From: a virus
DNA: 55,598 bases
Virus record (IMG/VR): IMGVR_UViG_3300017433_000001
Coordinates: 1-55,598 of that record
Direction: 5' to 3' (one strand)
In this document: positions 2,470 through 55,323 of the stretch, piece by piece
Position numbering within the stretch: position 1 is the stretch's first letter
How the letters are laid out: each line of letters opens with the position of its first letter
Notes under the pieces: generated by a model
What the model was told of the DNA's origin: nothing
Database searches by the model: none
The model's input: only the letters and a program-made list of their open reading frames with translations
Position numbers and translations under genes: made by a program

Positions 2470-2723
2470 CCGAGATCATCGAACGCGTCGCCGACGTACT
2501 CCAATCTGCCACGGCGCTCGACCGTCCGGAAGCGATAACCCTGGCGCGCCGTACAATTAGCGCCATGCGCGAGCCAGACCGGGTCGTGGTCAAGGCCATG
2601 TGCCGGTCGCTTTACCCAGAATGCCGGCCCATGCCGGATCGGGTTGGAGCATCCGAAAAACACCGCATCCGGTGGCGGGCTGCCATCGACCGCATCGTTC
2701 GCGAGCCGGAGACCGTCGCATGA
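2466..2723 (+). CDS. Hypothetical protein (85 aa)
   Basis: ATGA overlaps on both sides. Protein-like composition. Confidence 0.65.
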   Translation: MTEIIERVADVLQSATALDRPEAITLARRTISAMREPDRVVVKAMCRSLYPECRPMPDRVGASEKHRIRWRAAIDRIVREPETVA

Positions 2724-5014
2724 GCACCACTCTCCCGTGGATCTTCGACCCCGCGATCCATCAGGTTCTCTCGAACGTCTCCGTGGCCCTGGATCTGGCG
2801 CAATCGGGCGTGGCGGTGTTTCCGTGCCAATCGGACAAGAGGCCGTTCCCTGGCCTATTCTGGCGCAAGCAGAGCACCACCGACACGCAGACCATCGAGC
2901 GGTGGTGGGAGCGGTGGCCCGACGCCATTCCGGCCATCGATCTCGCCAAGTCCGACTTCCTCGTCATCGACTGCGACGGCGCGGTGGGGATTGAGGACTG
3001 GCGGAAAGTTACAGACGGTCGCGCGCCCAACGCGCCCACCATTTCGACGCCGAATGCCGGGCAGCACGTCTATTTCCGGCGCGGCGGACGCCCTCTCGGA
3101 AACTCCACAGGCGGCCTGCCGGCCAAGCGAGACGGGGGCGGGCTCGATGTTCGCGGAGCCGGGGGCTACGTCATCGCCCCGTGCGCCACCCTGATCGATG
3201 GCCGGCGCTACGAGCCGAGCGAGATCAGCATCCACCACGCGGACGAAGCTCCGGACTGGCTGATCACGATCCTGGAAGGCCATCGCGAATTCGCCGTCAC
3301 GGTCACGCCGGGCGCCCCCGTTTCCGACGAGCGCAAGCGCGCCTACGGCGAGCGGGCTTTGCTGGAGGAAATGGCGACGCTGGCCCAGGCCGGTCCCGGT
3401 ACCCGGTCGAACGAGGCCAACCGCATCGCCTTCCGGATCGGCCAGCTCGTCGGGGGCGGCTGTCTGACGGAAGCGGAGGCGTACAGCCACCTACACAACG
3501 CGGCGGCGTCCTGGGGCATCCCAGCCAACGACAAGGCCCTGGGGCCGCGTGGGACGATTGCACGGGCCATCCGCGACGGCGCCCGCTCCCCGCGCTTCTG
3601 TCCGGACGATCTTCCCGAACCCGAGGTCGACGCCTACGCCCGCGCCTTACTGACGCCGAAACCCATTCACGTCGACGAAGACGGCGTCCTATTAGACGAA
3701 ACGGGTCAGCCACTCCGGCCCGTCGTGATCCCCGGTCAATTCGACTACCCGGACCACAAGCTCCAGGTCGGCGGTCTCGTCGGGGAGATCGCCGAATGGA
3801 TCATGCGGACCGCTATGTTTCCATGCCGGCTGTTTGCCGTTTCGGCCGCGCTGGCGGCGGTCGGCACCGTCGTCGGGCGACAGGTCTACACGGGCGTCCC
3901 ACGGGCCGGGACGGCGCTGTATTGGCTCACCATCGCGCCGACCGCAGGCGGCAAGGACCGGCCGCAGGAGGCGATCAAGCAGGCCCTGCAAGCCGCCGAT
4001 CTCGGCCACCTCGTGCGGACGTCGGTGTCGTCATCGGCCAAGCTCGGCCTGTCGCTGTTCGAGCAGCCCGTCCAGTGCCAGGTGATCGACGAGGTCGGCA
4101 AGGTGCTGCGCAAGTTCGTGTCGCGCAACGCCACGAGCCAGGAGATGAGCCTGCTGGACGACTATTGCTCGATCTGGGGGAAGAACCTCGGTTCGTTCGA
4201 GCCGGAGGGTGTCACCACCCGCGCCGATGTCTCTATTCGCCAGCCCTCACTCACGTTCTACGGCGCCACGACGCCGGTCAATTTTTACGAGCAGCTTCGG
4301 GCCGCCCAGGTCGCGGGTGGCTTCCTCAACCGCTTCCTCGTGATGCAGCGACACCAGCGCGTGCCGGAGAACCCCGCGATCCAGCCCGAAGACGGCGTGC
4401 CGGATATCATTGTGGATGGCCTGAGACGGCTGCACACGTGGCAGGACTGCGTCGCCGGCCGCCCATCGGATCAGGTGAAGGACGCGGCCATGCCGCCACT
4501 ACCGGTGGTGATCCCGGAGAGCGACGAGGCCGCTGCGCGGCTGGCTGAATGCCGCGCGAAGGCGCGTGAGATGATCGTGCGATCCGACGAGGAACCTATC
4601 CTGGAGGTCTACGCTCGCTCGGCCGAGATGGTGAAGCGCATGGCCCTGATCCTGGCCTGCGGCCGGCACTGGCGGGACATGAGCCGCTGCCGGATCGAGG
4701 CGTGCGATGTCGACTACGCCGCCGGGCTGGTCAATTGGTCCATGGACAGCTTCGTCCGGGGGCTGGGGCTCTACATGGCCGAGAACGAGCAACAGGGAAA
4801 TCAGAAGCGCGTCCTGGCGATCATACGAGCCGCCAAGGGCGGGTGCTGCACCCGGAATGAGCTTTACCGCAAGATCGACGGCAAGCTGACCGGCCGGGAG
4901 ATCCAGGCGATTATGGTGTCTCTGGTCGAGGCGGATTGGGTGGAGGTCGTGGTCGAGAAGCCTCCGGTCGGGTCGAAGGGAGGTCGGCCAAAAACGCTCT
5001 ATCGAGCAACATAG
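2720..5014 (+). CDS. Bifunctional primase-polymerase (Prim-Pol N-domain, PriCT-like middle, DUF3987-like C-terminal region)
   Basis: ATG 2720 (M41 of ORF 2600..5014) overlaps the upstream stop. Motifs: VAVFPCQSDKRP, LVIDCDG, GQHVYF and GGYVIAP. RSNEANRIAFRIGQLV resembles PriCT. Confidence 0.85.
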   Translation: MSTTLPWIFDPAIHQVLSNVSVALDLAQSGVAVFPCQSDKRPFPGLFWRKQSTTDTQTIERWWERWPDAIPAIDLAKSDFLVIDCDGAVGIEDWRKVTDGRAPNAPTISTPNAGQHVYFRRGGRPLGNSTGGLPAKRDGGGLDVRGAGGYVIAPCATLIDGRRYEPSEISIHHADEAPDWLITILEGHREFAVTVTPGAPVSDERKRAYGERALLEEMATLAQAGPGTRSNEANRIAFRIGQLVGGGCLTEAEAYSHLHNAAASWGIPANDKALGPRGTIARAIRDGARSPRFCPDDLPEPEVDAYARALLTPKPIHVDEDGVLLDETGQPLRPVVIPGQFDYPDHKLQVGGLVGEIAEWIMRTAMFPCRLFAVSAALAAVGTVVGRQVYTGVPRAGTALYWLTIAPTAGGKDRPQEAIKQALQAADLGHLVRTSVSSSAKLGLSLFEQPVQCQVIDEVGKVLRKFVSRNATSQEMSLLDDYCSIWGKNLGSFEPEGVTTRADVSIRQPSLTFYGATTPVNFYEQLRAAQVAGGFLNRFLVMQRHQRVPENPAIQPEDGVPDIIVDGLRRLHTWQDCVAGRPSDQVKDAAMPPLPVVIPESDEAAARLAECRAKAREMIVRSDEEPILEVYARSAEMVKRMALILACGRHWRDMSRCRIEACDVDYAAGLVNWSMDSFVRGLGLYMAENEQQGNQKRVLAIIRAAKGGCCTRNELYRKIDGKLTGREIQAIMVSLVEADWVEVVVEKPPVGSKGGRPKTLYRAT

Positions 5015-48516: not shown

Positions 48517-48768
48517 ATGGGTGGCGCGAGGCTCGACGGGATGGACGACCTCGTGGCCCTTGGCGTCGGCTGTGAGAACTGCGGAAGAAAGAGACGACTG
48601 GCTAGGTCTCACATCGCAAGGCTGATTGGCCCCGGAATTCACACCGTAGAGCAGCTGGGGCAGCGCCTGAAGTGTCGCCCCTGCGCAGAGCGCGGGCTGG
48701 CCAGCAAAAACATCACCATTGTGCCGTACTATCGATGTGACGTGGCAGTCGCCGTAAAGGCGCTATGA
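48517..48768 (+). CDS. Small zinc-ribbon protein (83 aa) convergent with the repressor gene
   Basis: ATG 48517 after aaaggga. CENCG...CRPC motif. Overlaps the cI-like 3' end by 6 nt. Confidence 0.5.
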   Translation: MGGARLDGMDDLVALGVGCENCGRKRRLARSHIARLIGPGIHTVEQLGQRLKCRPCAERGLASKNITIVPYYRCDVAVAVKAL

Positions 48769-49515
48769 GATCCCAAGGGCCTCTTCCCAGGGGACGACGC
48801 GGTGCAAGCGCACCTCATCTCGCGCAAACTCTAAATCCTTGGGCGGATTGAACTGCTCCACGATAATTTTCGTGGGGGTACGAGCCTTCAACCTTTTAAG
48901 GAACGCCTTGCCAGGCTCGCCGGTCTCATCGGGTAGCATCTCCACCACGACATCGTCGCCGATCTGCGGCGCCCGGTTGGGATTGATGTAGAATGTCGCG
49001 TTGGGGCGCCACGCCGGGTACATGCTGTCGTTGCTAACCACCAGGGCGAAGAGGCCGCGGACGCCGGCCAAGGCCGGCGGACGGATCGCATAGTCGTTCT
49101 CCTGGCCGTTCATCTGGAAGTCGGCATCGTCGCCGCCGACCGCGATTCCACGAACCGGCACGTCCCTGGCGAGTCCTTGAAGGCTGGAAAAAGCTGGGGC
49201 GGTCGTGGCAAGCCGAACGCTCGCTTCCTGCCCCGGTCCTGGACGCAGTGAACTCCGGTTTGGGGAGTAGGCGACCGCCACCTTAGGGCCTGCGGATATC
49301 GAACGTCGAATGGCCTCGGCAAAAGGCGGGTCACTTAAAACGACGTTCAGCGATTCAGCGACCTTTAGGAGATTTTCGGGGGAGGGGGTCGTTGCCCCTG
49401 TTTCCCATTGTGAGATCGCGGGCGAGCTTACGCCCAACTGGCGGGCCAGATCGACCTTCTTCATCCCTCTCGCCATGCGCGCTTCACGCAGCGCGTCGCC
49501 AAGTTCGTTCGCCAT
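48763..49515 (-). CDS. cI: CI-like repressor: XRE HTH + S24 (LexA-like) autopeptidase domain
   Basis: KKVDLARQLGVSSPAISQWETG (HTH). VVSNDSMYPAW...DDVVVEM...FLKRLK (Ser/Lys dyad). ATG 49515; the track GTG at 49536 lies inside an operator. Confidence 0.9.
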   Translation of the reverse strand: MANELGDALREARMARGMKKVDLARQLGVSSPAISQWETGATTPSPENLLKVAESLNVVLSDPPFAEAIRRSISAGPKVAVAYSPNRSSLRPGPGQEASVRLATTAPAFSSLQGLARDVPVRGIAVGGDDADFQMNGQENDYAIRPPALAGVRGLFALVVSNDSMYPAWRPNATFYINPNRAPQIGDDVVVEMLPDETGEPGKAFLKRLKARTPTKIIVEQFNPPKDLEFARDEVRLHRVVPWEEALGIS

Positions 49516-49526
49516 GCGAAATCGAA

Positions 49527-49604
49527 TAAGCGTCACTTACTGACTTTCAAGCAAAGTCTCACTTGCGCACTTTCGTAAGCCGTGCTTATGATAAGCGCAT
49601 GAGC
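49527..49604. promoter_or_regulatory. Rightward operator cluster between the cI-like and cro-like genes
   Basis: TAAGCGTCACTTA (49527-49539), TAAGCCGTGCTTA (49576-49588, reverse complement of the 48358 box) and a weaker TAAGCGCATGAGC (49592-49604). Confidence 0.5.
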
Positions 49605-50585: not shown

Positions 50586-50821
50586 TCGCGGCCCCCCATC
50601 AGAAGCAGTTCCAACTGTATTCCAGACCAATCCAGCGCGCCCTGGCAGGGGCAGATGCCGGATACCTTTCGTGTGTAGTCGATGCGTACCGGGCGGCTCG
50701 CTGCTCTACCTCCATCGCACATGCCGAACTCGCTCCCGCTGTCGATGAGCAATCGACCACGGAGCAACGGACATGGGCATCCACAAACCACGGACAAACC
50801 ATCCAGGAGAACGTGCCGTGA
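50582..50821 (+). CDS. Hypothetical protein (79 aa)
   Basis: ATGA overlap (M11 of ORF 50552..50821). Confidence 0.5.
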   Translation: MIAAPHQKQFQLYSRPIQRALAGADAGYLSCVVDAYRAARCSTSIAHAELAPAVDEQSTTEQRTWASTNHGQTIQENVP

Positions 50822-51189
50822 GCGCGTCCCTTTATCTTGATGGCGCCAAAAGCCTAGCTGAAGCCTGCCTTGCGCGTGAAGTCTCTCGCCATGGTGTCAA
50901 TCGTGAGATTGCCCGCAATCGCCTGGCAAGCCGCCTCGGGTGGCCGCCAGGGACGCTCTACAATCTTCTGAGGGACCGTCTGAAAAAGCTGGATGGCGAT
51001 CTTCGTGAGCAGCTTACCGCGTATGCGATCAAGGACCTGAAGCATGAAATCGAAGGTCTCACCCGCGAGTTGGAGAACGCTGAGCGCCTGGGCCGTTCGC
51101 AAGATCCGTCGCTGGTTTGCAAAGCGGCTGCGGTCTTAGCGGAAGCGCAATCCCTACATGCCCGCCTAGCAGGCGAGGTGGCGCGATGA
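50818..51189 (+). CDS. Hypothetical protein (123 aa)
   Basis: GTGA overlap, with aggaga 8 nt upstream. Confidence 0.55.
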   Translation: MSASLYLDGAKSLAEACLAREVSRHGVNREIARNRLASRLGWPPGTLYNLLRDRLKKLDGDLREQLTAYAIKDLKHEIEGLTRELENAERLGRSQDPSLVCKAAAVLAEAQSLHARLAGEVAR

Positions 51190-52091
51190 CCGAGCCGCAG
51201 CGCGAGGGCCGCAAAGACGACACTGGCAAGGACCCATGGGACCTTGCCCCGTTCGACGCCTTCCGCGCCATCGTCGGCGTTCTGGCGTTCGGTGCCAAGA
51301 AGTACACTACTGAATTCAGTTGTGACGTGACCGGAGCAGCAACTTGGCTGACGCAGCACCTCCAGACGCTCGATCCGTCCTGTGCCATCCAGATCGCCGT
51401 CGATACAGCCAGGGGCTTTGCCGATCCTGCTACGAACGACAGCTTCGTGCATCTGATCCGGAGTACGCCGAGCGCCAGCGCGAAAACAGACGCGCATGGG
51501 GTCAGCGAAACCAAGAGCGCATCAGAGAACATCAGGAGCGCCGAAAAGCCTGCCCCGTCGCTCGTGAGCGCGATGCCCACTCACATCGCACGAGACGCCT
51601 CCGGAGCCTTGGCGTCACAGCAGACGACGTCGAACGCGTCCGCCGGCATCAACAGGATCGGTGTGCAATCTGCCGGCGGGATCTCGCCGACGTGGGTGCG
51701 ACGCATCTTGATCACTGTCACACAACCGGACGGTTCCGAGGCGTCTTATGCAGCAGATGCAACAACGGCATCGGCATGCTTTGCGAAGATCCAGAACTTC
51801 TGCGTCGAGCGCTTTCCTACCTTGAAAAGCCTGTCGCGGATCAAGTTCTCGGGCAGCGCTGACGAGATCACCGTCATTATTCCAGGCGCCCGCAACTGGG
51901 AGCAGGGCATGGCTTGGTCGCGCCTCTACGCTGCGACCTTCCGGCATCTGACCGCTTGGTGGGGCGGCGAGCGCACCGACCAAGAGACCGGGCTGTCACA
52001 CCTCGCGCATGCCGGCTGCTGCGTCTGCTTCCTCATCGCGTTCGAGCTTCGCGGCATCGGCACCGATGACCGGCCGGAGGGGTCCCGATGA
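51186..52091 (+). CDS. DUF5664 / MazG-like dATP-dGTP pyrophosphohydrolase-family protein interrupted by a 579-nt insertion
   Basis: N-terminal part RKDDTGKDPWDLAPFDAFRAIVGVLAFGAKKY (to 51305). C-terminal part GARNWEQGMAWSRLYAATFRHLTAWWGGERTDQETGLSHLAHAGCC (from 51885). These are contiguous in remembered homologues (GAxKY-x3-NW). Confidence 0.7.
   Translation: MTEPQREGRKDDTGKDPWDLAPFDAFRAIVGVLAFGAKKYTTEFSCDVTGAATWLTQHLQTLDPSCAIQIAVDTARGFADPATNDSFVHLIRSTPSASAKTDAHGVSETKSASENIRSAEKPAPSLVSAMPTHIARDASGALASQQTTSNASAGINRIGVQSAGGISPTWVRRILITVTQPDGSEASYAADATTASACFAKIQNFCVERFPTLKSLSRIKFSGSADEITVIIPGARNWEQGMAWSRLYAATFRHLTAWWGGERTDQETGLSHLAHAGCCVCFLIAFELRGIGTDDRPEGSR
51306..51884 (+). mobile_element. 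Homing-endonuclease insertion (579 nt) within the DUF5664-like gene; intron, split-gene or in-frame insertion unresolved
   Basis: Boundaries inferred from where the host-family motifs stop and resume. The insert contains the Endo VII ORF in another frame. Its edges are AT-richer (actactgaattc / cattattcc). Confidence 0.55.
51344..51862 (+). CDS. Recombination endonuclease VII-family (HNH-like) homing endonuclease
   Basis: CRSCYERQ...DRCAICRRDL...HLDHCHTTGRFRGVLCSRCNNGIGMLCEDPELLRRALSYL is the canonical Endo VII signature. Frame differs from the host gene. Confidence 0.85.
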   Translation: MADAAPPDARSVLCHPDRRRYSQGLCRSCYERQLRASDPEYAERQRENRRAWGQRNQERIREHQERRKACPVARERDAHSHRTRRLRSLGVTADDVERVRRHQQDRCAICRRDLADVGATHLDHCHTTGRFRGVLCSRCNNGIGMLCEDPELLRRALSYLEKPVADQVLGQR

Positions 52092-52501
52092 AACAGTCCG
52101 AAGCCTGCATCCAGGGCGAGATCATCGTCGCCATGAGCCGGACGTTCAATGCCCGGACCGTACACGTGCCGAACGGCGGCAAGCGGTCGGCGCGTGAGGG
52201 TCTTGCCCTGCGCTCTATGGGCGTGTGGGCCGGTCATCCGGATCTCATCGTCTACGGTGAGAACGGCCGGGACTTCCTGATTGAGGTCAAGGAGCAAGTT
52301 CTGGTGCGCGAGCGGGACGTGCCGACCGATCAGCGGTTCGACACCCTCGACCCGAAGCAGAAAGACGCCGTTCTGGAACTGAGAACGCGCGGAAAGATCG
52401 TCCACGTCGTGGACAATGTCGAGGACGCTTTAGCGGCCGGCCGTGCCTTCGGGCTGGCGCCCAAAGTGATCCGTAGGAGTCTGGCCGAGGTCTGCGCCTA
52501 G
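52088..52501 (+). CDS. VRR-NUC domain nuclease (PD-(D/E)xK)
   Basis: ATGA overlap. GHPDLIVYG...FLIEVK motif. Confidence 0.8.
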   Translation: MKQSEACIQGEIIVAMSRTFNARTVHVPNGGKRSAREGLALRSMGVWAGHPDLIVYGENGRDFLIEVKEQVLVRERDVPTDQRFDTLDPKQKDAVLELRTRGKIVHVVDNVEDALAAGRAFGLAPKVIRRSLAEVCA

Positions 52502-52589: not shown

Positions 52590-53387
52590 ATGGCGATTTC
52601 CTGGGATACCCTGAACCAAAAGAAGAAGCCCAAACCTCCGTGCATCCTACTGTACGGGCCGGAAAAAGCCGGAAAGACCACCCTGGCGAGCGAGTTTCCA
52701 GGGGCCGTGTACCTCCAGGCGGAAGAGGGTGACGGCGTCCTCGACATTCAGTCGCTCGGCAAGATCGAGAGCTATGCCGAGCTGATGGACGCCATCGGCA
52801 TGCTCTACAACAACGAGCACGAATTCCAGACCGTCGTCCTCGACAGCATTACCGCGTTGCAGCCCCTCGTGTGGGCGGAAACCGGCGCGCGCGGTGACGA
52901 CAAGGGCGCCAAGAAGGAGCGAATCGAGGATTTCGGCTACGGCAAGGGCTACCTCTACGCGCTCGCCGTCTGGCAGGAAATTCTGGAAGGCTTGAACGCC
53001 CTGCGTAACGAGCGCGGCATGACCATCATCATGATCGCGCACTCGAAGATCGAGCGGTTCGAGGACCCGGAGACCGCCGGGTATAACCGCTATGACATCG
53101 ATCTGCATGACAAGGCGCGCGAGTACCTGAAGCGCGAGGCCGACGCGATCCTCCTTCTCAAGCCGGACGTGATGGTGAAGTCCGAGGACAGCGGGTTCAA
53201 CAAGACCCGCGCCATCGCGCAAGGCGGCCGGTCGGTCTGGGTTCATGCCACGTCGCGCCCGGCCTATGCCGCTGGCAACCGCTACGGCATCCCCGAAAAG
53301 ACGCTCTACGAGAGCGGCAAGGGCTACGCGGCCCTCGCCCCGTACTTCCCCCATCTCGCCGTCCCCCTCGCCATCGCTGCGGAGTAA
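52590..53387 (+). CDS. RecA-fold AAA ATPase (AAA_24 / Sak4-like recombination protein)
   Basis: Walker A LLYGPEKAGKTT and Walker B VVLDSIT. aaggag precedes the ATG. Confidence 0.85.
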   Translation: MAISWDTLNQKKKPKPPCILLYGPEKAGKTTLASEFPGAVYLQAEEGDGVLDIQSLGKIESYAELMDAIGMLYNNEHEFQTVVLDSITALQPLVWAETGARGDDKGAKKERIEDFGYGKGYLYALAVWQEILEGLNALRNERGMTIIMIAHSKIERFEDPETAGYNRYDIDLHDKAREYLKREADAILLLKPDVMVKSEDSGFNKTRAIAQGGRSVWVHATSRPAYAAGNRYGIPEKTLYESGKGYAALAPYFPHLAVPLAIAAE

Positions 53388-54025: not shown

Positions 54026-54376
54026 ATGGCCGATGAAACACGCCCTGACAAGGGCAACGAAGACAACCGACTGACACGTTTCGCCATCAACGATTGCGAG
54101 CTATCGGTTCGAACAACCAACGCACTCCAGCGGTATGGCCGCTACAAGACTCTGGCCGATCTGGACGCGGCTACAGACGATGAATTGCACCGCATTCCCC
54201 ATCTGAGCACGAAGGGGATTTCTGAGGTTCGCGGCGCCATTCGAGCGGTTCGTTTTGGGGCGCTGTCTCTCGACGACGAGGTGATCGCTTGGGCTCAGGC
54301 CCATCTCACTCTGGTTCGCGCGCTGATGAACGGTGAGGCCGTCATCGTCCCTCGCAGTGGCGAGGTGGCAGCATGA
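54026..54376 (+). CDS. RNA polymerase alpha-subunit C-terminal-domain-like (HhH) protein
   Basis: CELSVRTTNALQRYGRYKTLADLDAATDDELHRIPHLSTKGISEVRGAI parallels E. coli alpha-CTD [44 protein letters not shown]. Confidence 0.65.
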   Translation: MADETRPDKGNEDNRLTRFAINDCELSVRTTNALQRYGRYKTLADLDAATDDELHRIPHLSTKGISEVRGAIRAVRFGALSLDDEVIAWAQAHLTLVRALMNGEAVIVPRSGEVAA

Positions 54377-55323
54377 CCGGCACCACCCTCCCACCCCCCA
54401 CCATCACCGCCGTCACCCTCATCGATGACGCCTACGCCGCCAAGGCCCGCAACGGGGACGGCGCCGGAATTGGCATGTCGTCGGTCTCCCACGAGTGCCT
54501 GCGGTCGCTTTGGTATTCGTTTCGATGGGTAGCCGAGCCGGAACAGGTCGAGGGCCGCAAGGAGCGGATCTTCAAGACCGGCAACATCTACGAGACGCGG
54601 CTTCTGGACGATCTGCGCGCCATCGGCTGCGACATCCGGGAAATCGATGAGACCACCGGCCAACAGATGCGGGTCGAACTGGCCGGCGGGCACCTGCGCG
54701 GCAAGGTCGATGGCGTACTGACGGGCTTCCACACCGACCCTGCTCTTGAGCGTGTCGTTGAGGCTAAGAGTATGAACGAGCGCACGTTCAAGGCGCTCGT
54801 GAAGGCCGGCACGGTGCGCGAGGGCAAGCCCGAACACTACGCCCAGCTTCAAGCCTACCTCCACGGCAGCGGCATTCGGCACGGCATCTACATCGCCGCG
54901 TGCAAGAACGACGACGCCATTTACGTCGAGGAAGTGCCCTATGATCCGGCCTACGGCGTCGCCATGGTCGCCCGTATCGAGCGGATCGTCGCCATGGATG
55001 AGCCGCCGGCCCCGCTCTACGGCAAGGTCGAGCGCGGGTGCTTCTTCTGCCGGGCCAAGGCGCAGTGCCATGAAGGCGCCTGGGCGCGAGTGAACTGCCG
55101 GACATGCCTGGAGTCAGAGGCTCTGGACGGCCCGCAATGGCGCTGCCGGATGACCGGCCGAGTGCTGTCCTACAACGATCAGCAAGCCGCCTGCGGGGGG
55201 CACCGCTTCATCCCTGGCCTAGTGCCGGGCGAGCAACAGGACGCCGATCCCGAAACGCGCGCGATCACCTATCGGCTGGCCGATGGGGCGATCTGGGTGG
55301 ATGGCGGGGAGGTGGCGGCATGA
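54373..55323 (+). CDS. PD-(D/E)XK (Cas4/RecB-like) exonuclease with C-terminal Cys cluster
   Basis: ATGA overlap. GKVDGVL...VVEAKS nuclease core. CFFCRAKAQC and CRTC cysteines. Confidence 0.75.
   Translation: MTGTTLPPPTITAVTLIDDAYAAKARNGDGAGIGMSSVSHECLRSLWYSFRWVAEPEQVEGRKERIFKTGNIYETRLLDDLRAIGCDIREIDETTGQQMRVELAGGHLRGKVDGVLTGFHTDPALERVVEAKSMNERTFKALVKAGTVREGKPEHYAQLQAYLHGSGIRHGIYIAACKNDDAIYVEEVPYDPAYGVAMVARIERIVAMDEPPAPLYGKVERGCFFCRAKAQCHEGAWARVNCRTCLESEALDGPQWRCRMTGRVLSYNDQQAACGGHRFIPGLVPGEQQDADPETRAITYRLADGAIWVDGGEVAA

What the first reader, a model, noticed from the sequence alone, without database searches (positions are those of the whole stretch)
51186..52091. Endo VII homing endonuclease nested precisely inside a DUF5664/MazG-like nucleotide pyrophosphohydrolase gene
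Seen: the family motifs stop at ...FGAKKY (51305) and resume at GARNWEQG... (51885). As I remember homologues, KY and NW are separated by only about 3 residues. The intervening 579 nt (a multiple of 3) is almost filled by a canonical Endo VII ORF (51344-51862) in a different frame, and the host frame stays open across the insert.

Only 38 nt upstream and 22 nt downstream of the ORF remain, too little for a standard group I intron core unless the ORF overlaps it.

Inference: possibilities are (a) a very compact or unusual self-splicing element, (b) a split gene expressed as two polypeptides, (c) a tolerated 193-aa loop insertion translated from the off-frame of the endonuclease gene (dual coding), or (d) an inactivated host gene. 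Each would be unusual for this family.
Basis: partly seen in the sequence, partly recalled or inferred. Interest (0 to 1): 0.75.

Follow-up and report, generated by a model that had tools for sequence, protein, structure and literature searches.

The report
Unspliced endonuclease gene inside phage gene
A selfish DNA-cutting gene sits inside a phage nucleotide-cleaning gene with no intron or intein to remove it. The host gene is instead translated straight through it in a second reading frame that evolution keeps free of stop codons, a way of hiding in genes that has barely been described.

Summary
The PF18909 (ex-DUF5664) dNTP pyrophosphohydrolase gene 51186-52091 is interrupted after ...GAKKY by a 579-nt insert (51306-51884). 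An intact Endo VII gene (51344-51862, GGAG + TTG) almost fills the insert in host frame +2, and the host frame stays open.

In this GC-rich window alone the open frame could be chance (P about 0.3-0.45). Comparison settles it:
- At least 27 independent loci (GC 0.34-0.60) and at least 148 protein clusters carry the same cassette at the same codon.
- All have zero stops in the host frame, against 5-24 in the third frame.
- Free-standing relatives have 2-13 stops in the equivalent frame.

The shortest cassettes leave 20 nt before the endonuclease start and borrow the host's GGT GAx codons for its stop, so no ribozyme fits. No Rfam intron, HINT domain or splice-junction residue is found.

Related cassettes sit the same way in two large-terminase genes and in a Gordonia phage helicase.

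Best reading: a homing-endonuclease cassette that is not spliced but translated through, as a mostly disordered loop with weakly constrained, possibly folded ends. The closest precedent is actinophage inteins with out-of-frame Endo VII (2025 preprint).

The parts
51186..52091 (+). Complete read-through host ORF (301 aa): PF18909 dATP/dGTP diphosphohydrolase-type protein carrying the 193-aa insert. Its ATG overlaps the stop of the upstream ORF (ATGA, 51186-51189). Its stop overlaps the ATG of the downstream VRR-NUC-like gene (ATGA, 52088-52091).
   Evidence: The identical protein is called as one gene in public assemblies (P0001).
51186..51305 (+). Host part 1 (codons 1-40, ending ...FGAKKY): the first helix of the all-alpha fold.
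   Evidence: Pfam split. Alignment with uninterrupted homologues. AF2 pLDDT about 90-97 for residues 11-40, lower for the N-terminal tail.
51306..51884 (+). The inserted cassette, 579 nt (193 host-frame codons, no stop). It has no flanking repeats.
   Evidence: Boundaries from the protein alignment and the junction DNA alignment of 19 loci. Stop counts. No terminal direct or inverted repeats.
51333..51336 (+). GGAG Shine-Dalgarno for the endonuclease, 7 nt before its TTG start.
   Evidence: Sequence. The same SD-like motif, 8-11 nt before the start, is seen in most nested loci.
51344..51862 (+). Endo VII (His-Me finger) endonuclease gene, 172 aa, in host frame +2. It has an N-terminal C..GxCRxCYE motif, then CxxC / HxDH / CSRCNNG, all intact.
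   Evidence: PF02945 E=4.8e-20. phrog_2914 E=7e-38. Invariant residues. The Endo frame is 51% conserved and its third codon positions are the most variable.
51306..51371 (+). Host-frame N-terminal segment of the insert (residues 41-62), predicted as a strand plus a helix. It covers the 38-nt leader and the unconserved start of the Endo ORF.
   Evidence: AF2 pLDDT 91-96 with both the 43- and the 150-sequence alignments. Host-frame similarity is above the synonymous-shuffle null, z=3.6.
51372..51767 (+). Host-frame middle of the insert (residues 63-194): Ser/Thr/Ala-rich, predicted disordered, with no host-frame constraint other than the absence of stops.
   Evidence: pLDDT about 45-55. Host-frame similarity equals the null, z=0.8. 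Host-frame identity 0.25 against 0.25 for the non-coding third frame.
51768..51884 (+). Host-frame C-terminal segment of the insert (residues 195-233), predicted as two helices plus a hairpin. It includes the 22-nt trailer after the Endo stop (GAGATCACCGT motif).
   Evidence: AF2 pLDDT 73-94. Host-frame similarity z=8.5 against 2.4 for the third frame. The trailer motif is conserved in PF18909 and TerL cassettes.
51885..52091 (+). Host part 2 (GARNWEQG... to the stop): the remaining helices of the PF18909 fold.
   Evidence: Pfam profile 38-99. Foldseek/BFVD matches to PF18909 proteins at rmsd about 1 A.

Best explanation
This is a homing-endonuclease cassette that lives inside a protein-coding gene with no splicing element.

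**Proposed mechanism**
- The cassette is a multiple of 3 nt long. It sits in the loop-coding DNA between helix 1 (...GAKKY) and helix 2 (G-x-RNWE...) of a phage dNTP pyrophosphohydrolase gene.
- The host ORF is translated straight through it in the endonuclease's +1 frame. Selection keeps that frame free of stop codons.
- The result is the host enzyme with an extra 193-residue loop. The middle is disordered. The two ends are weakly constrained and are predicted to fold together, which would bring the insertion points back together.
- The endonuclease is made separately by internal initiation (GGAG + TTG) in host frame +2.
- By analogy with other homing endonucleases, it presumably cuts the uninterrupted allele around AARTAY|GGNGNNCGNAAYTGG and is copied in by repair. 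The insert itself destroys that site.

**Shown:** the anatomy, the frame relation, stop avoidance, spread across many phages, and related cassettes in two other host genes.

**Inferred:** translation of both frames, retained host activity, the folded ends, and cleavage and homing.
For: **1. Same cassette, same codon, same frame relation, host frame always open**
- This holds in the window plus L001-L004.
- It also holds in about 22 further distinct loci found by a DNA search seeded with the endonuclease, which is blind to gene calls.
- Stops are 0 in the host frame and 5-24 in the third frame, at GC 0.34-0.60.

**2. Null models**
- Synonymous shuffles give P(0 stops) down to 0.0004 per locus. 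The summed log10 P is -29.3 over 19 loci.
- Nineteen non-nested relatives (18 free-standing plus the split-gene locus L047) all have 2-33 stops in that frame.

**3. The host frame outlives the endonuclease.** The endonuclease has decayed in L001, L033 and L028 (in-frame stops, and a lost zinc cysteine in L001) while the host frame stays open.

**4. No room for a ribozyme**
- The 486-nt class has 20 nt before the Endo ATG.
- Its Endo stop lies -5 to +7 nt from the junction, in four loci made of the host codons GGT GAx.
- Rfam finds nothing in the window (E<=10) or in 20 nested loci.

**5. No intein**
- No HINT or intein Pfam family appears in 150 insert-bearing proteins, in the two TerL genes or in the helicase.
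- The first residue of the insert is variable (T in 49%), and the residue after it is Gly or Ala.

**6. The host gene stays under selection.** G36, K39, Y40, N237, W238, R253, H254 and H272 are nearly invariant in 150 diverged insert-bearing proteins. AF2 keeps the host fold at pLDDT above 90.

**7. Related cassettes sit the same way in other genes**
- TerL, between the ATPase and nuclease domains, in L011 and L012. The insert is absent from the Caulobacter phage Kronos TerL.
- The SF2 helicase gp71 of the cultured Gordonia phage Malisha.

**8. Sporadic distribution.** The window's host parts are as close to uninterrupted alleles (75%, 71%) as to insert-bearing ones (73%, 78%).

**9. Internal ribosome-binding sites.** SD-like motifs precede the Endo start in most loci.
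Against: - There are no expression data of any kind: no RNA, no protein, no cleavage assay.
- In this window alone the open frame is not statistically unusual (P 0.28-0.46).
- The insert lies next to nearly invariant host residues (KY / NW), so a 193-aa addition there could impair the enzyme.
- Retained function is inferred only from sequence conservation and from the essentiality of TerL in the terminase cases.
- The folded ends rest on AF2 and on modest conservation statistics. One hairpin (residues 172-192) was confident with the shallow alignment but not with the deep one.
- An unknown excision chemistry cannot be excluded by sequence analysis.
- One related locus (L047) shows the gene split into two ORFs instead.
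Confidence: 0.75

Rival explanations
1. A very compact or unconventional self-splicing RNA element (group I, group II or an unknown ribozyme) removes the 579 nt from the mRNA. The open host frame is incidental.
For: Phage homing endonucleases of the HNH superfamily are often intron-encoded (established knowledge). The insert is precise and lies in a conserved coding site.
Against: - No Rfam intron match in the window even at E<=10, and none in 20 nested loci.
- In the 486-nt class only 20 nt precede the ORF, and the ORF's stop is at or beyond the junction.
- Splicing would not explain why the host frame has 0 stops in every nested locus down to GC 0.34.
- It would not explain why the frame stays open when the endonuclease decays.
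- Every nested insert is a multiple of 3 nt, which an intron does not need to be.
Confidence: 0.04
2. The host-frame insert is a protein-splicing or self-cleaving element. It would be a non-canonical intein with an out-of-frame Endo VII, as reported in actinophages, and it is removed after translation. That would also require an open frame.
For: - The open frame is equally required for protein splicing.
- Gosselin et al. (bioRxiv 10.1101/2025.01.02.630785) describe inteins whose Endo VII-like endonuclease lies in frame 3, the same frame relation as here.
- The ends of the insert are the constrained, possibly folded parts.
Against: - No HINT or intein family in 150 insert-bearing proteins, the two TerL genes or the helicase.
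- No PDB sequence match and no fold match.
- The first insert residue is variable (T 49%, also R, S, G).
- There is no His-Asn at the end of the insert.
- The downstream residue is Gly (88%) or Ala, not Cys/Ser/Thr.
- A 162-aa insert fully overlapped by a 153-157-aa endonuclease ORF leaves no separate space for a splicing domain.
- Over most of the overlap the host-frame identity equals that of a non-coding frame.
Confidence: 0.07
3. The gene is split. The N-terminal 40 residues and the C-terminal part are made as separate polypeptides that reassemble, as with mobE in nrdA of phage Aeh1.
For: One related locus (L047) has exactly this layout: an N-terminal ORF, an Endo VII(+DNMK) ORF, and a C-terminal ORF starting at the Met of GMAYSR. 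Split genes around free-standing endonucleases are known (cited).
Against: - In the window no ATG, GTG or TTG exists in the host frame between the Endo stop and M242. A separate C-terminal piece would therefore lack the invariant RNWE motif.
- There is no stop after the N-terminal part.
- The frame is open in all of about 27 nested loci, which a split gene does not need.
Confidence: 0.04
4. The host gene is simply inactivated by the insertion. The open frame in this window is a by-product of high GC.
For: In the window alone P(no stop) is 0.28-0.46. PF18909 genes are accessory.
Against: - The frame is open in every nested locus, including those at GC 0.34-0.45 where P is 0.0004-0.08.
- Host catalytic-region residues are nearly invariant in 150 diverged insert-bearing proteins.
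- The same arrangement occurs in the large terminase, which is essential.
- Both ends of the window's ORF are coupled to neighbouring genes by ATGA overlaps.
Confidence: 0.05
5. The host-frame insert is a genuine accessory domain with its own function for the phage. It is an exapted, overprinted domain, not merely a tolerated spacer.
For: The ends of the insert show host-frame constraint (z=3.6 and 8.5 against -0.3 and 2.4 for the control frame). AF2 predicts them confidently with two alignments. The arrangement persists in at least 148 clusters.
Against: - About 125 of the 193 residues are unconstrained and predicted disordered.
- No known fold or family matches.
- The short class lacks the C-terminal hairpin.
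- Close host alleles do without the insert.
Confidence: 0.05

Closest known systems
[quoted passage not shown]
   Same: - An Endo VII-type endonuclease ORF nested inside a host ORF in 'frame 3' (host +2), with the host frame read through it.
- The large terminase is among the hosts.
- Relatives of the endonuclease are free-standing genes.
- Annotation pipelines miss the second ORF.
   Different: - Their elements are reported as inteins. A conserved splicing domain flanks the endonuclease region, and the second ORF lies mostly outside it.
- Here no HINT domain or splice-junction residues exist, and the endonuclease ORF fills 90-97% of the insert.
- The hosts here are proteobacterial-type and low-GC metagenomic phages, and the main host gene is PF18909. 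That gene is not among the four host types they list for non-canonical endonucleases.
Free-standing homing endonucleases and intronless homing (T4 seg/mob genes; F-CphI of cyanophage S-PM2, an Endo VII-motif homing endonuclease, PMC6083498)
   Same: - The same catalytic family as F-CphI.
- No intron or intein.
- Close relatives of this endonuclease sit immediately next to uninterrupted PF18909 genes (L010, L014, L016, L018, L020, L035, L039, L041). This is the classical free-standing layout, in which the endonuclease targets its neighbour.
   Different: Free-standing genes lie between genes. Their +1 frame is full of stops. Here the gene lies inside the target's coding sequence and is co-translated in another frame.
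mobE inside nrdA of Aeromonas phage Aeh1 (Gibb & Edgell 2007, cited; details from my own knowledge)
   Same: An HNH-superfamily endonuclease gene embedded within a nucleotide-metabolism gene, without an intron or intein.
   Different: There the host gene is split into two separately translated polypeptides. Here the host frame is continuous. Only L047 resembles the Aeh1 layout.
Phage T4 gene 60 bypass element with mobA (my own knowledge: Bonocora et al. 2011)
   Same: An endonuclease-associated mobile insertion inside a coding sequence that is dealt with at the level of translation rather than by splicing.
   Different: In T4, ribosomes hop over 50 nt. Here 579 nt are apparently decoded, which is why the frame must be open.
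Group I introns carrying HNH endonuclease ORFs
   Same: A precise insertion at a highly conserved coding site, and an endonuclease of the His-Me finger superfamily.
   Different: No ribozyme core, no room for one, and a length that is always a multiple of 3 with an open exon frame.

Membership tests
PF18909 / DUF5664 dATP/dGTP diphosphohydrolase (host gene) | Match to the family profile over its full length | tested here: met
   With the insert removed: profile 3-99 of 99, E=4e-33, 113.8 bits against a cutoff of 27. BFVD fold matches to family members at rmsd about 1 A.
PF18909 / DUF5664 dATP/dGTP diphosphohydrolase (host gene) | dNTP pyrophosphohydrolase activity (shown for Arthrobacter phage Wayne DUF5664, PMC12884076) | not testable with these tools
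   Only conservation of the nearly invariant residues in insert-bearing members is available.
Endonuclease VII / His-Me finger (PF02945) | Profile match plus the zinc cysteines and the H-x-D-H ... C-x-x-C-N-N catalytic core | tested here: met
   E=4.8e-20. C107, C110, H121, D123, H124, C136, C139, N140 and N141 are invariant in the alignment.
Homing endonuclease gene (mobile element) | Sporadic presence or absence at one precise site among otherwise similar alleles | tested here: met
   Host parts are 73-78% identical to insert-bearing alleles and 71-75% to uninterrupted ones. The site is identical in all loci. Related cassettes also occur in TerL and a helicase.
Homing endonuclease gene (mobile element) | Cleavage of the insert-less allele and copying by repair | not testable with these tools
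   Needs an enzyme assay and co-infection crosses.
Group I (or II) self-splicing intron | Conserved ribozyme core detectable by covariance model | tested here: not met
   No hit at E<=10 in 50800-52500. No gathering-level hit in 20 nested loci.
Group I (or II) self-splicing intron | Enough non-ORF or structured sequence for a core (about 200 nt or more) | tested here: not met
   38 + 22 nt here. In the short class, 20 nt upstream and -5 to +7 nt downstream.
Intein | HINT splicing domain (blocks A, B, F, G) | tested here: not met
   No intein or HINT Pfam family in 150 insert-bearing proteins. None in the insert alone at E<=1. No PDB match.
Intein | Nucleophile at the first intein residue, terminal His-Asn, and Cys/Ser/Thr at +1 | tested here: not met
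   First residue T/R/S/G (T 49%). Last residues are variable. The +1 residue is Gly in 88% of cases, and Ala in TerL.
Split gene around a free-standing endonuclease (Aeh1 nrdA/mobE type) | Host coding sequence broken into two ORFs, the second with its own start | tested here: not met
   One continuous ORF. No start codon in the host frame between 51862 and the Met at codon 242. The feature is met only in L047.
Overlapping (dual-coding) genes | Two long ORFs on one strand, each maintained by selection | tested here: met
   The Endo frame is 51% conserved with variable third positions. The host frame is kept stop-free, summed log10 P = -29.3.
Overlapping (dual-coding) genes | Amino-acid-level purifying selection on the second frame | tested here: inconclusive
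   Overall host-frame identity is 0.254 against 0.249 for the non-coding frame. At the two ends, similarity exceeds the shuffle null (z=3.6 and 8.5) more than the control frame does (z=-0.3 and 2.4).

The most novel reading that the evidence does not exclude
Homing endonucleases have a third way, besides introns and inteins, to live inside essential protein-coding genes. It is a portable, 3n-long cassette whose second reading frame is kept stop-free, so the host protein is simply translated through it. In that frame the cassette encodes a disordered loop bracketed by two short segments that fold together. Related cassettes have colonised at least three unrelated phage genes: a dNTP pyrophosphohydrolase, the large terminase and an SF2 helicase. 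Gene callers hide them by reporting one long 'hypothetical' ORF.
Probability: 0.5. Interest if true: 0.85.

Novelty: new variant of a known kind. Interest (0 to 1): 0.8.

Why it matters
- **A possible third strategy.** Textbook accounts give homing endonucleases two ways to sit inside a gene without killing it: RNA splicing and protein splicing. If this cassette is translated through unspliced, it is a third, simpler solution, and a natural example of selection acting on an overlapping frame only to keep it open.
- **Origin of inteins.** A nested, read-through endonuclease could be a starting or an end point for non-canonical inteins.
- **Protein tolerance.** It bears on how proteins tolerate large loop insertions.
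- **Annotation.** At least 148 protein clusters in public databases are single 'PF18909' ORFs that hide an uncalled endonuclease gene.
- **Practical use.** The endonucleases are candidates for new site-specific nucleases. Their target can be read directly from the uninterrupted allele.

Tried and rejected
- **Rfam:** permissive scan of 50800-52500, and a gathering-level scan of 20 nested loci. Only noise (Sphinx, MEG8, mir-981) or nothing.
- **Close DNA relatives in GenBank phages:** only a 105-nt match to the host C-terminal part in two cyanophages.
- **tblastn of the 301-aa protein against GenBank phages:** no record covers the insert. The nested PF18909 form is so far metagenomic only. Xanthomonas phage DES1 looked like a candidate but is uninterrupted.
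- **PDB sequence search:** nothing for the insert or for the spliced host protein.
- **Foldseek of the full model against the PDB:** nothing significant. The HIV RT and Hsp33 hits have E above 0.3.
- **Terminal repeats, target-site duplication, promoters and terminators around the insert:** none meaningful.
- **Presence/absence polymorphism of the helicase insert among cultured Gordonia phages:** only two related phages exist, and both carry it.
- **Host-frame tryptophan near the insert start (xxEW):** first taken as a sign of a conserved host-frame peptide. It is explained by the endonuclease start codon, ATG-G or TTG-G.
- **DNA for P0004:** not available.
- **L037 insert boundaries:** the automatic boundaries were wrong and were left out.
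- **Other copies in the window:** there are no other Endo VII copies.
Full report
**1. The observation**

The ORF 51186-52091 (ATG start, 301 aa) matches Pfam PF18909 (dGTP_diPhyd_N, formerly DUF5664) in two pieces. The second piece starts at residue 235, profile position 38. Removing 51306-51884 restores a single match to profile 3-99 (E=4e-33).

Uninterrupted homologues read FGAKKY-xx-RNWE. The insert lies exactly between Y40 and G234.

The insert is 579 nt. It holds an ORF at 51344-51862 in host frame +2, with a TTG start and GGAG 7 nt upstream. That ORF is a clear Endonuclease VII / His-Me finger protein: PF02945 E=4.8e-20, phrog_2914 E=7e-38. Its zinc and catalytic residues are intact.

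The host frame has no stop across the insert. The third frame has six.

**2. Is the open frame more than chance?**

Not in this window alone. At 60% GC, shuffling synonymous codons of the Endo ORF leaves the host frame open in 42-46% of trials. Recoding with the window's own codon usage leaves it open in 28%. The answer had to come from relatives.

**3. Relatives**

*Protein search.* A search with the 301-aa read-through product found five other full-length, insert-bearing homologues: P0002, P0003, P0004, P0008 and P0014.
- DNA was retrieved for four of them (L001-L004).
- In each, the Endo VII ORF is again in host frame +2, and the host frame has 0 stops. The third frame has 10-21.

*Endonuclease-seeded DNA search.* That set depends on gene callers having reported one long ORF, so I also searched viral and metagenome DNA with the endonuclease alone.
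- About 22 further distinct loci have the Endo ORF flanked by PF18909 halves, split at the same profile position.
- Every one has the host frame open across the whole cassette.
- Third-frame stops are 8-24, at GC from 0.34 to 0.57.

*Statistics.*
- Per-locus probabilities of zero stops under synonymous shuffling go down to 0.0004.
- Summed over 19 intact nested loci, log10 P is -29.3. This null is conservative, because it keeps each ORF's already biased codon set.

*Controls.* Nineteen non-nested relatives (18 free-standing plus the split-gene locus L047) all have 2-33 stops in the equivalent frame.

*Decayed endonucleases.* In L001 the endonuclease has an in-frame stop and has lost a zinc cysteine. 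In L033 and L028 it has in-frame stops. The host frame is still open in all three.

Selection therefore acts on the host frame, independently of the endonuclease.

**4. What the cassette is not**

*Not an intron.*
- Rfam finds no intron in the window at E<=10, or in 20 nested loci at gathering level.
- In the 486-nt size class the Endo ATG is 20 nt from the 5' junction, and those 20 nt hold its Shine-Dalgarno.
- Its stop lies -5 to +7 nt from the 3' junction. In L003, L031, L032 and L033 the stop is built from the host's own GGT GAx codons.
- All inserts are multiples of 3 nt.

*Not an intein.*
- No HINT or intein family is found in 150 insert-bearing proteins, in the insert alone, or in the terminase and helicase cases.
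- There is no PDB sequence match and no fold match.
- The first insert residue varies, there is no terminal His-Asn, and the next host residue is Gly or Ala.

*Not a split gene.* There is no start codon for a C-terminal piece that would retain RNWE.

*Not a dead gene.* G36, K39, Y40, N237, W238, R253, H254 and H272 stay nearly invariant in 150 diverged insert-bearing proteins.

**5. What the host-frame peptide looks like**

Over the Endo ORF, pairwise amino-acid identity is:
- 0.51 in the Endo frame
- 0.254 in the host frame
- 0.249 in the non-coding third frame

Endo third codon positions are the most variable. So the endonuclease is the primary coding frame, and most of the host-frame peptide is unconstrained apart from lacking stops.

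A regional test compared observed similarity with a synonymous-shuffle null conditioned on no stops:

| Region of the insert | Host frame (z) | Third frame, control (z) |
|---|---|---|
| N-terminal | 3.6 | -0.3 |
| Middle | 0.8 | -0.6 |
| C-terminal | 8.5 | 2.4 |

AlphaFold2 gives the same picture with a 43-sequence and a 150-sequence alignment.
- The host helices are at pLDDT above 90.
- Insert residues 42-62 (a strand plus a helix) are at pLDDT 91-96.
- Residues 195-232 (two helices plus a hairpin) are at pLDDT 73-94.
- Residues 63-189 are near 50.
- One hairpin (172-192) was confident only with the shallow alignment.

The constrained ends are encoded where the endonuclease is least constrained: the leader, the Endo N- and C-termini, and the trailer. 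I read this, tentatively, as a disordered loop held by two end segments that pack together and bring the insertion points back together. No known fold matches.

**6. Breadth**

- A profile of the host-frame insert alone finds 228 clusters (50% identity) at E<=1e-3, and 111 at E<=1e-10, among 1.84 billion representatives.
- Of the top 150, 148 are PF18909 proteins.
- No GenBank phage record carries the nested PF18909 form.
- Related endonucleases (about 38-41% identical) are nested in the same frame relation, with the host frame open, in two large-terminase genes (L011, L012). They sit between the ATPase and nuclease domains.
- Caulobacter phage Kronos TerL, 53% identical to L011, lacks the roughly 185 residues: WTIDK|GDDW against YTIDT-KPYTEM...ITVP|ADDW.
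- The same arrangement occurs in the SF2 helicase gp71 of the cultured Gordonia phage Malisha.
- The TerL junctions resemble the PF18909 ones (..AAG NCG TAC|AC.. and ..ATCACCGT..|G, then G/A-D-x-W). This hints at a move into a look-alike site, perhaps carrying a little flanking sequence. That is inference.
- Other relatives are classical free-standing genes immediately next to uninterrupted PF18909 genes.
- One locus (L047) has the gene truly split.

**7. Mobility**

The window's host parts are 73-78% identical to insert-bearing alleles and 71-75% identical to uninterrupted ones. The endonucleases are only about 50% identical to each other. Presence is therefore sporadic among similar alleles, as expected for a homing element. 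Cleavage and homing were not, and cannot be, tested here.

**8. Context in the window**

- The window is essentially a whole ~55.6-kb phage contig.
- It carries a CI-like repressor and a replication/recombination module: helicase, primase, Sak4-like annealase, Cas4-type exonuclease and a VRR-NUC-like gene.
- The host ORF is coupled by ATGA overlaps to both neighbours. A premature stop would therefore also disturb downstream translation.
- PF18909/DUF5664 proteins are dATP/dGTP/dUTP pyrophosphohydrolases (PMC12884076).

**9. Comparison with what is known**

The closest precedent is a 2025 preprint that reports actinophage inteins whose Endo VII-like endonuclease is encoded 'in reading frame 3 relative to the intein'. 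It calls this previously unreported.
- The frame relation and the endonuclease family are the same as here.
- The difference is that those elements are described as having a conserved splicing domain outside the second ORF. Here there is none, and no room for one.

Full-text searches found no description of an intein-less, intron-less, read-through endonuclease cassette. The library is incomplete, so I cannot claim absolute priority.

Other relevant precedents:
- Endo VII-motif homing endonucleases as such are known (F-CphI, PMC6083498).
- So are endonuclease genes that split their host gene (mobE/nrdA).
- So is a translation-level workaround (the T4 gene 60 bypass with mobA). These last two rest on the citation and on my own knowledge.

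**10. Verdict**

- I rate it a new variant of a known kind: a homing endonuclease gene that persists inside coding sequence by read-through of a stop-free overlapping frame.
- There is a fair chance it deserves to be seen as a distinct third strategy beside introns and inteins.
- Confidence in the read-through cassette model is 0.75, and in the folded-ends detail about 0.4.
- All expression-level statements are inferences awaiting RNA, protein and cleavage experiments.

Noticed in passing
L011 422-2875 and L012 359-2758 (IMG/VR contigs UViG_3300034142_000025 and UViG_3300011539_000003): A related Endo VII ORF (L011 1462-1959; L012 1318-1872) is nested in host frame +2 inside large-terminase genes, between the ATPase and nuclease domains. 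The TerL frame is open, giving 792 and 780 aa against 574 aa for Caulobacter phage Kronos TerL.
   Followed up: yes
L059 1530-3389 (Gordonia phage Malisha OP434458.1, gp71; also Squiddly MN096370.1): A cultured phage has an intact Endo VII ORF (L059 2441-2971) nested in frame +2 of its annotated SF2 DNA helicase. The ORF is not annotated. There is no HINT domain, and the host-frame insert is Ser/Thr/Pro-rich.
   Followed up: partly
L047 1185-2689 (FRDC01000385.1): Here the PF18909 gene really is split. The layout is an N-terminal ORF 1185-1322, then one 386-aa ORF that fuses Endo VII with a deoxynucleotide monophosphate kinase domain (PF21448), then a C-terminal ORF 2486-2689 starting at the Met of GMAYSR.
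   Followed up: partly
L041 287-1290 (RRZU011904395.1): A complete PF18909 gene (287-595) is followed by a free-standing Endo VII (623-1129) and then a second, partial PF18909 C-terminal fragment (1111-1290, profile 46-91). This looks like a duplication of target flank left by endonuclease movement.
   Followed up: no
L001 3036-3692; L033 730-1050; L028 1120-1581: The endonuclease ORFs in these nested loci are decayed, with in-frame stops. L001 also reads CSRGNNG in place of CSRCNNG. The host frame remains open in all three.
   Followed up: partly
window 51225-51248: A near-perfect 24-nt palindrome, GGCAAGGACCCATGGGACCTTGCC, lies inside the conserved GKDPWDLA-coding part of the host gene, about 60 nt upstream of the insertion site. 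Its significance is unknown.
   Followed up: no
alignment A1: P0005-P0009 against P0001-P0004, P0008, P0014: The closest uninterrupted homologues all carry a 60-100-aa N-terminal extension before the GRKDD motif. All six insert-bearing homologues start directly at that motif.
   Followed up: no
window 51186-51189 and 52088-52091: There are ATGA start/stop overlaps on both sides of the host ORF, with the upstream 138-aa ORF and the downstream VRR-NUC-like gene. This suggests a translationally coupled operon.
   Followed up: no
window 48763-49533 (-), 527-2137, 2600-5014, 52590-53387, 54373-55323: These genes are a CI-like repressor, a DNA helicase, a primase, a Sak4-like annealase and a Cas4-type exonuclease. 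The window looks like a complete, circularly permuted temperate-phage genome of a GC-rich host. There are no tRNAs.
   Followed up: partly
one search hits H129 (Yersinia phage vB_YenP_WX2), H136/H145 (Klebsiella phages KP3-1, HZJ31), H150 (Escherichia phage rV5_ev168): Endo VII-like matches lie under, or partly under, genes annotated as protein kinase, tail protein or large terminase. These are possible further nested or overlapping cases in cultured phages.
   Followed up: no
L016 (Gordonia phage OneUp NC_030917.1, genes 127/128): A free-standing Endo VII gene slightly overlaps (about 29 nt) the start of a PF18909-type ORF whose KY...NW loop is naturally longer (KYTERDARGAVVHDGANNW). The record's adjacent 'nucleotidase' annotation (gene 127) was not mapped onto this ORF.
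   Followed up: no
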